From: the human T2T-CHM13v2.0 reference genome, Homo sapiens
Length of the DNA: 64,000 nt
Direction of reading: 5' to 3'
NCBI GenBank assembly: GCA_009914755.4
Contig: CP086569.2
Span: forward strand, 18,240,001-18,304,000
Shown: in pieces, positions 59,520 to 60,230 of the stretch
Layout: every line of letters starts with the position of its first letter
Position numbering within the stretch: position 1 is the first letter of the stretch
Notes under the pieces: model-generated
What the model was told of the DNA's origin: nothing
Database searches by the model: none
Seen by the model: only the letters and a program-made list of their open reading frames with translations
Translations under genes and position numbers: made by a program

Positions 59520-60230
59520 GTTATGTTTTAAATTTGAGATTGGTCTCTCTCTCTCTCTGTCTCTCTCTTATATGTATGTGTATGTATACATGTGTGTAGG
59601 ATATACATATCTATTAACTATTTATATATCTGTCATTTACCCATTTCTATCTATAACTTTTCTAAGCATTTGGATATATACTTACAATTGAAAATTATTC
59701 TACAGTTTTATACATATATATCTAAATATATACATCTAATATATATATAAATATATATATATAATTATATATAAATATATATTTTATTATACACATAAAT
59801 AATATATTTATAAAAATATATTAGATATATTTAGATATATATGTTTAAATATATATATTTAATATACATTTAATATAGATATATATGTTTAAATATACAT
59901 ATGTTTAAATAGATATCTCTCTGTATATATAACTGTAGAATAATCTACAATTGAAAGTATATATCCAAATGCTTAGAAAAGTCATAGATAGAAATGGGTA
60001 AATGACAGATATATAAATATATATCTAAATATATATAGATATACATTTGACAGATATATATGACAAATATATAAATATATATCTAAATATATATAGATAT
60101 CTAAAATATAGATATCTAAATATATATAGATATCTAAAATATAGATATCTAAATATATATAGATATCTAAAATATAGATATCTAAATATATATATATATA
60201 TAGTTTTTCTTTTGTTGTTTGTTTTTGTTT
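59520..60230. repeat. AT-rich region containing a ~88-bp-arm inverted repeat (59621-59708 / 59931-60020, ~94% identical) around a ~220-bp AT-rich spacer, followed by a 33-bp-unit AT-rich tandem array (60085-60195)
   Basis: arm1 tttatatatctgtcatttacccatttctatctataacttttctaagcatttggatatatacttacaattgaaaattattctacagtt; reverse complement of arm2 tttatatatctgtcatttacccatttctatctatgacttttctaagcatttggatatatactttcaattgtagattattctacagtt; tandem unit atatctaaatatatatagatatctaaaatatag. Confidence 0.85.

What the first reader, a model, noticed from the sequence alone, without database searches (positions are those of the whole stretch)
59520..60230. AT-rich palindromic repeat (PATRR-like) with adjacent AT-rich tandem array
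Two ~88-bp arms (59621-59708 and 59931-60020) are reverse complements at ~94% identity and are separated by a ~220-bp almost pure A/T spacer with internal short repeats. A 33-bp-unit tandem array (atatctaaatatatatagatatctaaaatatag x ~3.5) follows at 60085-60195. Long AT-rich palindromes of this kind can extrude cruciforms. Elsewhere in the human genome (PATRR11, PATRR22, PATRR17) they are recognised hotspots for double-strand breaks, recurrent translocations and size polymorphism. This one is shorter and has a longer spacer, so it is presumably more stable, but it is a plausible site of length polymorphism or replication difficulty.
Basis: partly seen in the sequence, partly recalled or inferred. 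Interest (0 to 1): 0.5.

Follow-up and report, generated by a model that had tools for sequence, protein, structure and literature searches.

The report
Decayed AT-rich palindrome beside a minisatellite
This is a real but ordinary piece of primate junk-DNA architecture: two 89-bp inverted copies, separated by about 220 bp of scrambled A/T sequence and followed by a short 33-bp tandem array. The gap between the copies is far too long for it to behave like the known translocation-causing palindromes.

Summary
Arms 59619-59707 and 59931-60019 pair at 85/89 positions on one axis (59819.0). The spacer is 222-223 nt and 91.5% A+T. A 33-bp unit repeats 3.8 times at 97% identity at 60075-60199.

The PATRR interpretation is only partly supported. 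The locus has two of the three published PATRR features: an AT-rich centre with less AT-rich ends, and a flanking AT-rich direct-repeat region. It fails the defining one, a nearly perfect palindrome without a spacer. The spacer halves are no more complementary than shuffles. The only trace of symmetry is a C-to-G strand switch at the axis.

Published work shows that a 9-bp spacer already abolishes PATRR22 extrusion, and loops over 100 bp are treated as non-extrudable. Cruciform formation here is therefore very unlikely. A long hairpin (-112.7 kcal/mol) needs about 400 nt of single-stranded DNA.

The best reading is an old local fold-back inverted duplication in an AT-dinucleotide-rich island next to an old Alu tail. 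Slippage has since degraded its centre, and a younger minisatellite has grown out of the right arm boundary.

Polymorphism, conservation and repeat-family membership could not be tested. The finding is of low interest.

The parts
59544..59608 (.). Left-flank simple repeats: (TC)n at 59544-59568 and a (TGTA/TATG)-type repeat at 59577-59608. They mark the left edge of the low-complexity island.
   Evidence: TRF rows; sequence.
59619..59707 (+). Left arm of the inverted repeat (well-paired core, 89 nt, about 77% A+T).
   Evidence: Pairs on axis with 59931-60019 at 85/89 positions, with perfect runs of 36, 28, 14 and 6 bp. Also; A+T content.
59708..59930 (.). Spacer, which forms the loop: 223 nt, 91.5% A+T, AT/TA dinucleotides 63%. 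It is not palindromic beyond composition, but C and G use switches at the axis.
   Evidence: Shuffle tests give z = 0.7 and 1.6. No on-axis inverted 8-mers. Left half has C 6, G 0; right half has C 5, G 8; Fisher p = 0.018. Composition.
59706..59823 (+). 118-nt G-free (A/T/C-only) run. It is the longest in the 64-kb window and ends 4 nt from the symmetry axis at 59819.
59739..59780 (.). The only unspaced near-palindrome in the locus under the catalogue rule (8-bp perfect core, at most 4 mismatches): 42 bp, 100% A+T.
   Evidence: Palindromes longer than 40 bp number about 180,000 in the human genome (PMC7999016).
59931..60019 (-). Right arm of the inverted repeat (reverse complement of the left arm, about 76% A+T).
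59999..60100 (+). Tandem duplication that includes the outer 21 nt of the right arm plus 23 nt of flank. Segment 59999-60042 is repeated at 60057-60100 with 42/44 matches. The flanking array therefore grew out of the arm boundary.
60075..60199 (+). AT-rich minisatellite. The unit is 33 bp (ATAGATATCTAAATATATATAGATATCTAAAAT), present in 3.8 copies at 97% identity and 89.6% A+T. Each subunit carries the 10-bp palindrome TAGATATCTA.
   Evidence: TRF, motif map, DNA fold of 60020-60232 at -33.4 kcal/mol, z = -5, A+T.
60203..60245 (-). T-rich tract, which is the degenerate A-tail of the adjacent antisense Alu. It directly abuts the AT-rich array.
   Evidence: Sequence; position relative to the Alu match.
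60247..60443 (-). Old, truncated Alu.
   Evidence: blastn. The consensus came from my own knowledge, not from a database.

Best explanation
The locus is a degenerate AT-rich quasi-palindrome with no indication of function.

Shown directly:
- An 89-nt segment is present in two inverted copies at 95% identity, sharing one sharp symmetry axis.
- The copies are separated by about 220 nt of 91.5% A+T low-complexity DNA.
- The whole structure sits in a roughly 700-bp simple-repeat island, which reads (TC)n, (TGTA)n, inverted repeat, AT-rich array, Alu A-tail.
- A 33-bp minisatellite lies on the right. It originated partly by tandem duplication of the right-arm boundary.

Inferred origin:
- A fold-back or template-switch error during replication of an AT-rich tract made a nearly continuous palindrome. 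The AT-rich tract may have been seeded by the A-tail of the neighbouring old Alu.
- This happened roughly 20-47 million years ago, with a wide range (confidence interval 5-114 million years).
- The A/T centre mutates by slippage far faster than the more complex arms. It has since been scrambled by small tandem duplications and indels.
- What remains of its symmetry is a C-to-G strand-composition flip at the axis.

Inferred behaviour:
- In duplex DNA the 173-223-bp loop, with imperfections clustered on its loop side, makes cruciform extrusion non-competitive. Under negative supercoiling the A/T centre should simply melt.
- On single-stranded DNA the arms can form a stem of about -79 kcal/mol (-111 to -113 kcal/mol for the whole structure). 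This needs about 400 nt exposed at once, more than a normal eukaryotic Okazaki initiation zone. It should therefore matter only under replication stress or long resection.
- The variation most likely to be seen in populations is slippage-type copy-number change in the 33-bp (15 + 18-bp) array and the TA-rich tracts, not breakage at the palindrome.
For: Structure:
- Arms match at 83/87 and 85/89 positions.
- A single axis carries 57 inverted 8-mer pairs.
- The arm is unique in the window.
- The fold has z = -21. Arms alone give -78.6, the spacer alone -34.0 and the whole -111.3 kcal/mol.

Decayed centre:
- The spacer halves are not complementary beyond composition, and the spacer has no on-axis 8-mers.
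- The longest G-free run in the window (118 nt) ends 4 nt from the axis, and C/G use flips there (p = 0.018). Mirrored C and G positions lie closer together than random (P = 0.03), though this is driven by the outer pairs.
- Local tandem duplication is active at this locus: families D1 and D2, the 42/44 boundary duplication and the 97% identical 33-bp array.

Not a recent artefact: the arms differ by 4-5% and the inner ends carry indels.

Context:
- The Alu tail abuts the array.
- AT/TA dinucleotides are 0.58-0.63 here against 0.164 for the window.

Literature:
- Template switches are enriched in AT-rich and poly(dA:dT) DNA (PMC7954356).
- A 9-bp spacer abolishes PATRR22 extrusion and instability (PMC1851657).
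- Loops over 100 bp are excluded as non-extrudable. AT-rich asymmetric inverted repeats denature instead, and imperfections near the loop block extrusion (PMC3834812).
- Inverted Alus with a 52-bp spacer no longer stall eukaryotic replication forks, and the Okazaki initiation zone is 100-200 nt (PMC7999016).
- Widely spaced inverted repeats become unstable only in long single-stranded DNA (PMC10164571).
Against: - The origin is inferred from one sequence. No orthologue or second allele could be obtained.
- The evidence that the spacer was once palindromic is modest. The strand-flip p-value is 0.018, the inner mirrored C/G pairs alone are not significant (P = 0.32), and direct alignment of the spacer halves scores better than inverted alignment.
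- No repeat-family library (Dfam/RepeatMasker) was available, so a transposon origin for the arms is not formally excluded.
- The age estimate ignores gene conversion between the arms and rests on 4 differences.
- All stability statements are extrapolated from other palindromes and from thermodynamic models. Nothing was measured on this sequence.
Confidence: 0.6

Rival explanations
1. The 401-bp unit (59619-60019) is a non-autonomous DNA transposon (MITE-like) with terminal inverted repeats of about 90 bp and an AT-rich interior, inserted into an AT-rich tract.
For: The arms look like terminal inverted repeats, with fairly sharp outer boundaries. A 7-bp direct repeat, ATATCTA, lies near both ends.
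Against: - The ATATCTA copies are off the symmetry axis (5 nt from one end, 1 nt from the other). ATATCTA is also the most frequent motif of the adjacent array (about 10 copies), so a chance match is likely.
- Symmetric boundaries give only TA, AT or CTA repeats.
- There is no second copy, even a diverged one, in 64 kb, and no exact 25-mer match in three public collections.
- The arms are 95% identical. To my knowledge human DNA transposons have been inactive for about 37 million years or more, and their terminal repeats are usually more diverged.
- The termini do not resemble those of hAT, Tc1/mariner or piggyBac elements (from memory, not tested).
Confidence: 0.1
2. It is a genuine PATRR-class unstable palindrome. 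The sequence in this window is a stabilised asymmetric allele, or a clone-derived deletion or rearrangement, of a locus that is a long symmetric palindrome in other haplotypes.
For: - PATRR features 2 and 3 are met.
- The hairpin energy is comparable to that of PATRR8 alleles.
- The database sequence of PATRR8 was judged a cloning artefact, and PATRRs have asymmetric alleles with insertions of AT-rich sequence.
- C/G use flips exactly at the axis.
Against: - The arms are only 76-77% A+T, and the whole structure is 85%, against more than 90-98% in PATRRs.
- The 4-5% arm divergence, and a centre with no alignable symmetry, point to long decay rather than a recent deletion from a perfect palindrome.
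- The arm sequences are not printed in any searchable paper.
- There are no population data.
Confidence: 0.07
3. It is a functional element. One option is a transcribed long hairpin RNA (a miRNA or endo-siRNA precursor, or an ADAR substrate). The other is a base-unpairing region, matrix-attachment region or DNA-unwinding element that exploits the easily melted A/T centre.
For: The RNA fold is -172.7 kcal/mol, z = -21.6, with a stem of about 90 bp. The 118-nt G-free ATC-type tract at 93% A+T resembles the base-unpairing regions described in the literature (my own knowledge).
Against: - No Rfam family reaches its threshold. The only hits are far sub-threshold matches to miRNA families derived from simple repeats (17-27 bits against gathering scores of 80-100).
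- There is no evidence of transcription or conservation.
- The same features follow trivially from composition plus an inverted duplication.
Confidence: 0.05
4. It is an assembly or sequencing artefact, such as a fold-back chimera or a clone rearrangement, and is not present in the real genome.
For: Inverted duplications are a known artefact class. Palindromic regions are error-prone in clones.
Against: An artefactual fold-back would give essentially identical arms joined directly. Here the arms differ at 4 of 89 positions, the inner ends have indels, and 220 nt of non-symmetric sequence lies between them.
Confidence: 0.02

Closest known systems
PATRRs (palindromic AT-rich repeats: PATRR11, PATRR22, PATRR17, PATRR8), especially their asymmetric (AS) alleles
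   Same: - AT-rich centre with less AT-rich ends.
- A flanking AT-rich region containing direct repeats of about 30 bp (PATRR8 has 35 and 28 bp; this locus has 33 bp).
- Overall size of about 400 bp.
- Predicted single-strand hairpin energy of similar magnitude.
   Different: - The loop is 173-223 nt and non-palindromic, against 4-41 bp in PATRRs.
- The paired arms are 89 nt, against about 100-300 nt.
- Arm identity is 95%, against 96-100%.
- Arm A+T is 76-77%, against more than 90-98%.
- No translocation or polymorphism data exist for this locus.
- Published experiments and models predict no cruciform extrusion for such a structure.
AT-rich minisatellites of the rare fragile sites FRA16B (33-bp unit) and FRA10B (about 42-bp unit)
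   Same: The unit length is 33 bp. The array is about 90% A+T and can form hairpins.
   Different: - The unit sequence is unrelated to the FRA16B unit: 19/33 at the best rotation, which equals the shuffle expectation.
- There are only 3.8 copies, against 7-12 in normal and up to about 2000 in fragile FRA16B alleles.
AT-dinucleotide-rich sequences (AT-DRS, 'flexibility islands') of common fragile sites
   Same: AT/TA dinucleotide content is 58-63%, against 66% in the FRA16C AT-DRS. The length of about 490 bp exceeds the 200-250 bp used to define an AT-DRS.
   Different: - It is far shorter than the 3-kb or longer AT-DRSs shown to drive fragility.
- The criterion of at least 7 consecutive 300-nt segments below -40 kcal/mol is not met. 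Only 2 consecutive segments pass.
Closely spaced inverted Alu pairs
   Same: Both are spaced, imperfect inverted repeats that form long hairpins in single-stranded DNA. The dependence of instability on spacer length and divergence was worked out on Alu pairs.
   Different: - The arms here are not Alu or any recognised repeat, and they are more similar to each other (95%).
- The window's own head-to-head Alu pair at 3654-4072 is more closely spaced and folds more strongly, at -131.6 against -112.6 kcal/mol.

Membership tests
PATRR | Nearly perfect palindrome several hundred bp long, without a spacer (PMC4940405, PMC4255720) | tested here: not met
   The paired core is 89 nt per arm. The 223-nt spacer has halves that are not complementary beyond composition (z = 0.7 and 1.6) and carries no on-axis inverted 8-mers. 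The only unspaced near-palindrome is 42 bp.
PATRR | More than 90% A+T content | tested here: not met
   Whole inverted repeat 84.8%, arms 76-77%, spacer alone 91.5-93%.
PATRR | [quoted passage not shown] | tested here: met
   The centre is 91.5-93% A+T and the arms are 76-77%.
PATRR | Another AT-rich region flanking the palindrome | tested here: met
   60020-60202 is 88.5% A+T and includes 3.8 copies of a 33-bp direct repeat. PATRR8 flanks carry 35-bp and 28-bp repeats.
PATRR | Lies at constitutional translocation breakpoints, with size-polymorphic alleles in the population | not testable with these tools
   No human population or breakpoint data were reachable. Searches of public collections and the literature for the sequence found nothing.
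PATRR | Extrudes a cruciform in negatively supercoiled DNA under physiological conditions | not testable with these tools
   This needs a wet-lab assay. Published data predict failure: a 9-bp spacer abolishes extrusion and loops over 100 bp are treated as non-extrudable.
FRA16B/FRA10B-type AT-rich minisatellite | Tandem array of an AT-rich unit of about 33-42 bp | tested here: met
   Period 33, 97% matches, 89.6% A+T.
FRA16B/FRA10B-type AT-rich minisatellite | Unit sequence homologous to the FRA16B repeat | tested here: not met
   The best rotation and strand gives 19/33 identity. Shuffles average 19.8.
FRA16B/FRA10B-type AT-rich minisatellite | Copy number in the normal (7-12) or expanded (hundreds to about 2000) range, with cytogenetic fragility | tested here: not met
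   There are 3.8 copies; the reference ranges come from PMC2875025. Fragility itself cannot be tested here.
AT-dinucleotide-rich sequence (AT-DRS) / flexibility island | High AT/TA dinucleotide content over more than 200-250 bp | tested here: met
   0.58 over 59709-60202 (494 bp), and 0.63 in the spacer and in the array, against 0.164 for the window. Thresholds come from PMC6765107.
AT-dinucleotide-rich sequence (AT-DRS) / flexibility island | Fragility-associated size (at least 3 kb), or at least 7 consecutive 300-nt segments with folding energy below -40 kcal/mol | tested here: not met
   The block is about 0.5 kb. Only 2 consecutive segments fall below -40 kcal/mol: 60001-60300 at -50.1 and 60151-60450 at -40.5.
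Non-autonomous DNA transposon (MITE) | Terminal inverted repeats flanked by a target-site duplication on the symmetry axis | tested here: inconclusive
   Inverted termini are present. The only repeat of 7 bp or more (ATATCTA) is off-axis and is the commonest local motif. On-axis candidates are 2-3 bp.
Non-autonomous DNA transposon (MITE) | Multiple dispersed copies in the genome | not testable with these tools
   No other copy exists in the 64-kb window. No genome-wide or Dfam search was available.

The most novel reading that the evidence does not exclude
The locus is an unrecognised PATRR-class site. In some human haplotypes the centre would be a long, symmetric, near-perfect AT palindrome capable of cruciform extrusion, double-strand breakage and palindrome-mediated translocation. 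The sequence in this window would then be a stabilised asymmetric allele. The layout (AT-rich centre, less AT-rich ends, flanking AT-rich direct repeats) and the C-to-G flip at the axis do not exclude this.
Probability: 0.05. Interest if true: 0.6.

Novelty: new member of a known kind. Interest (0 to 1): 0.15.

Why it matters
As it stands it matters little. Spaced, imperfect AT-rich inverted repeats and short AT-rich minisatellites are common in primate genomes, and the published rules on spacer length and central symmetry predict that this one is stable.

Its modest value is as a worked example of what a palindrome looks like after its centre has decayed. The arms are preserved at 95%, the centre is unalignable, and only a strand-composition flip marks the old axis. 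It also shows a minisatellite being born from an arm boundary.

It would matter more if population data showed symmetric alleles. That would add a site to the short list of palindromes that mediate recurrent human translocations.

Tried and rejected
1. Looking for other copies or alleles of the locus.
- An exact 25-mer from the arm found nothing in metagenome, genome or viral contigs.
- A unique left-flank 28-mer found nothing in metagenome or genome contigs.
- Four exact-protein look-ups of ORFs in or near the locus found nothing on record.
- So no test of polymorphism or conservation was possible.

2. Literature search for the arm and unit sequences as text strings: no hits. The PATRR17 evolution paper (PMC2818517) is not held.

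3. Known RNA families. The Rfam gathering scan of the window found nothing. The permissive scan of 59400-60500 gave only far sub-threshold hits to repeat-derived miRNA families. Rejected.

4. Extending the palindrome through the spacer by alignment. The best inner alignment (59707-59770 against the reverse complement of 59825-59893, 55/69) scores no better than the shuffles. Not claimed.

5. Homology of the 33-bp unit to FRA16B: rejected, 19/33 equals chance.

6. Unspaced palindromes inside the 33-bp array. They are detected only as imperfect arms at 81-85% complementarity, and none passes the 4-mismatch catalogue rule.

7. Target-site duplications: nothing convincing.

8. Identifying the genomic locus through coding sequence. 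The long ORFs are only L1 and endogenous-retrovirus fragments, so no host gene was identified.

9. The second inverted repeat that brackets the (AGAT)n array (54940-56432) might have indicated a recurring local architecture. It is simply an inverted Alu pair.

Full report
**1. The observation**

blastn gives 94.6% over 92 nt, E = 2.6e-37.
- On one ungapped axis (paired coordinates sum to 119638, centre 59819.0), the well-paired core is 59619-59707 with 59931-60019. It matches at 85/89 positions, in perfect runs of 36, 28, 14 and 6 bp.
- The repeat finder extends the arms to 114 nt at 88%, but the added 25 nt match at only 15/25.
- A 42-mer from the arm, allowing 3 mismatches, occurs only at the two arms, with none expected in shuffles.
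- The DNA fold of 59600-60040 is -112.7 kcal/mol, against -37.4 +/- 3.6 for dinucleotide shuffles (z = -21).
- TRF reports the tandem array at 60075-60199: period 33, 3.8 copies, 97% matches, made of alternating subunits of about 15 and 18 nt.

**2. What the centre is**

The 223-nt spacer is 91.5% A+T, while the arms are 76-77%. It is not a palindrome.
- Its halves are no more complementary than dinucleotide shuffles (z = 0.7 global, 1.6 local). Direct alignment of the halves actually scores better than inverted alignment.
- All 57 inverted 8-mer pairs on the main axis come from the arms. None comes from the spacer.
- Under the published catalogue rule (8-bp perfect core, at most 4 mismatches), the locus contains only one unspaced near-palindrome: 42 bp of pure A/T at 59739-59780. 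The review read counts about 180,000 palindromes longer than 40 bp in the human genome.

One trace of former symmetry survives.
- The longest G-free run in the entire window (118 nt, 59706-59823) ends 4 nt from the axis.
- C and G use flips there: the left half has C 6 and G 0, the right half C 5 and G 8 (Fisher p = 0.018).
- Mirrored C and G positions are closer together than random (P = 0.03). This is driven by the pairs nearest the arms; the inner pairs alone give P = 0.32.

**3. Surroundings**

The window is primate DNA. No host gene was recognised.

The inverted repeat sits in a simple-repeat island of about 700 bp. From left to right this reads:
- (TC)n and a (TGTA)-type repeat;
- left arm, A/T spacer, right arm;
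- an A/T array containing the 33-bp minisatellite;
- a T-rich tract (60203-60245), which is the degenerate A-tail of an old, truncated antisense Alu at 60247-60443 (about 78% identical to consensus).

AT/TA dinucleotides make up 58-63% of the block, against 16% for the window.

The last 21 nt of the right arm plus 23 nt of its flank (59999-60042) are repeated in tandem at 60057-60100, with 42/44 matches. The array therefore partly grew out of the arm boundary. Tandem duplication is evidently the dominant local mutation process (families D1 and D2).

**4. How exceptional it is**

- In a fold scan of the whole window (450-nt segments, mean -42.6, sd 11.5 kcal/mol), the locus ranks second at -112.6. 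First is a head-to-head Alu pair at about 3654-4072, at -131.6.
- Of the five other inverted repeats in the window that are at least 60 nt long and lie within 2 kb of each other, four are Alu pairs.
- The published structural criterion for fragile regions is at least 7 consecutive 300-nt segments below -40 kcal/mol (PMC6765107). It is not met; only 2 consecutive segments pass.

**5. Mechanism: what it can and cannot do**

- Thermodynamically, the single-strand hairpin is strong. The arms alone give -78.6, the spacer alone -34.0 and the whole structure -111.3 to -112.8 kcal/mol. This is similar to the values tabulated for PATRR8 alleles, -122 to -143 kcal/mol (PMC4255720).
- Kinetically and competitively, it is a poor cruciform former.
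  - Kogo et al. showed that a 9-bp central spacer plus four mismatches near the centre stopped a 593-bp PATRR22 from extruding at physiological conditions, and from being unstable in E. coli (PMC1851657).
  - Zhabinskaya and Benham exclude loops over 100 bp as having insignificant extrusion probability.
  - They find that asymmetric PATRR11 alleles (mean loop 41 bp, 95.7% match) extrude with probability 0.006-0.39, because AT-rich inverted repeats prefer to denature.
  - They also show that imperfections clustered near the loop block extrusion (PMC3834812).
- In this locus the loop is 173-223 bp. Three of the four core mismatches lie 14-23 nt from the loop end, and the next 25 nt are only 60% paired.
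- For replication hairpins, inverted Alus with a 12-bp spacer stall eukaryotic forks but those with a 52-bp spacer do not. The explanation given is that the Okazaki initiation zone is only 100-200 nt (PMC7999016). This structure needs about 400 nt exposed at once.
- Widely spaced inverted repeats become dangerous only in long single-stranded DNA (PMC10164571).
- My inference is that the locus is stable in normal cells. It could fold back only under replication stress or long resection. Its likely population variation is slippage in the array and TA tracts.

**6. Origin (inferred)**

- Two arms at 95% identity on one sharp axis, an A/T centre with a strand-composition flip at that axis, and no further copy of the arm anywhere fit a local fold-back or template-switch inverted duplication within an AT-rich tract.
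- Such events are enriched in AT-rich and poly(dA:dT) DNA in great-ape genomes (PMC7954356).
- Fast slippage decay of the centre would follow.
- The arm divergence (Jukes-Cantor d = 0.047) gives about 20-47 million years, depending on the rate used, with a confidence interval of 5-114 million years. This ignores gene conversion between the arms.
- The 4-5% arm divergence and the indels argue against an assembly or cloning fold-back artefact.

**7. Comparison with known families**

- PMC4255720 gives three common PATRR features. Features 2 (AT-rich centre, less AT-rich ends) and 3 (flanking AT-rich region) are met. In PATRR8 that flank carries 35-bp and 28-bp copy-variable direct repeats.
- Feature 1 is not met: a nearly perfect palindrome of several hundred bp, 'without spacer regions' and over 90% A+T (PMC4940405).
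- So the locus looks like a PATRR in layout but is not one. It should not work like one.
- The 33-bp array shares its period and composition with the FRA16B minisatellite, which has 7-12 copies normally and up to about 2000 when fragile (PMC2875025). Its unit is unrelated, with 19/33 matches equal to the shuffle mean, and it has only 3.8 copies.
- As an AT-dinucleotide-rich sequence it passes the composition and 200-250-bp criteria, but it is far below the 3-kb size shown to drive fragility.

**8. Rivals**

- A MITE-like transposon is not excluded without Dfam, but it lacks an on-axis target-site duplication and any second copy.
- A true polymorphic PATRR, with this window showing a stabilised allele, remains possible at low probability. 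The PATRR8 reference sequence was itself judged an artefact.
- A functional hairpin RNA or unpairing element has no support beyond fold energy.

**9. What could not be done**

- No second allele or orthologue could be retrieved.
- The sequences appear in no searchable paper.
- No repeat-family library or human population data were available.

**10. Verdict**

This is a real, well-defined structure, but an ordinary one: a decayed AT-rich quasi-palindrome with an adjacent young minisatellite. It is a new member of a known kind and of low interest (0.15). There is roughly a 5% chance that population data would reveal a symmetric, PATRR-like allele, which would make it considerably more interesting.

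Noticed in passing
window 3654-4072: Two Alus lie head to head, one on the minus strand at 3654-3848 and one on the plus strand at 3848-4072, with essentially no DNA between them. Their inverted arms at 3728-3814 and 3911-3997 are 80% complementary. This is the strongest predicted DNA hairpin in the window (-131.6 kcal/mol per 450 nt). 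By the spacer criterion it is a better candidate for instability than the flagged locus.
   Followed up: partly
window 7864-7996 and 8886-9018: A non-Alu inverted repeat of 133 nt at 94% complementarity with an 889-nt spacer. It lies next to endogenous-retrovirus integrase fragments at 9777-10912 on the minus strand. Its origin was not examined.
   Followed up: no
window 49100-50105: About 1 kb of degenerate (TAGATA)n-type repeat with long C-free runs. It belongs to the same GATA/TATC motif family that appears in the 33-bp array.
   Followed up: no
window 54762-56432: (AGAT)n and (GAAA)n microsatellites at 54762-54928 and 55228-56002, in and around an inverted Alu pair (54940-55226 plus strand, 56140-56432 minus strand). 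I first suspected a second copy of the 'inverted repeat around a simple repeat' architecture, but it is just two Alus.
   Followed up: yes
window 60441-60728: A 151-bp tandem duplication (1.9 copies, 84% identity), with each copy ending in a (TG)n run. It starts exactly where the truncated Alu ends.
   Followed up: no
window 42739-44025: A 428-aa open reading frame with a strong reverse-transcriptase match (RVT_1, E = 5.6e-33). It is presumably a relatively intact L1 ORF2 fragment.
   Followed up: no
window 8001-12000 and 20475-20695: GC skew is strongly positive (+0.36 to +0.39) over the retroviral region. An array of 41-bp and 118-bp tandem repeats at 20475-20695 resembles LTR-internal repeats (the identification is from memory only).
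   Followed up: no
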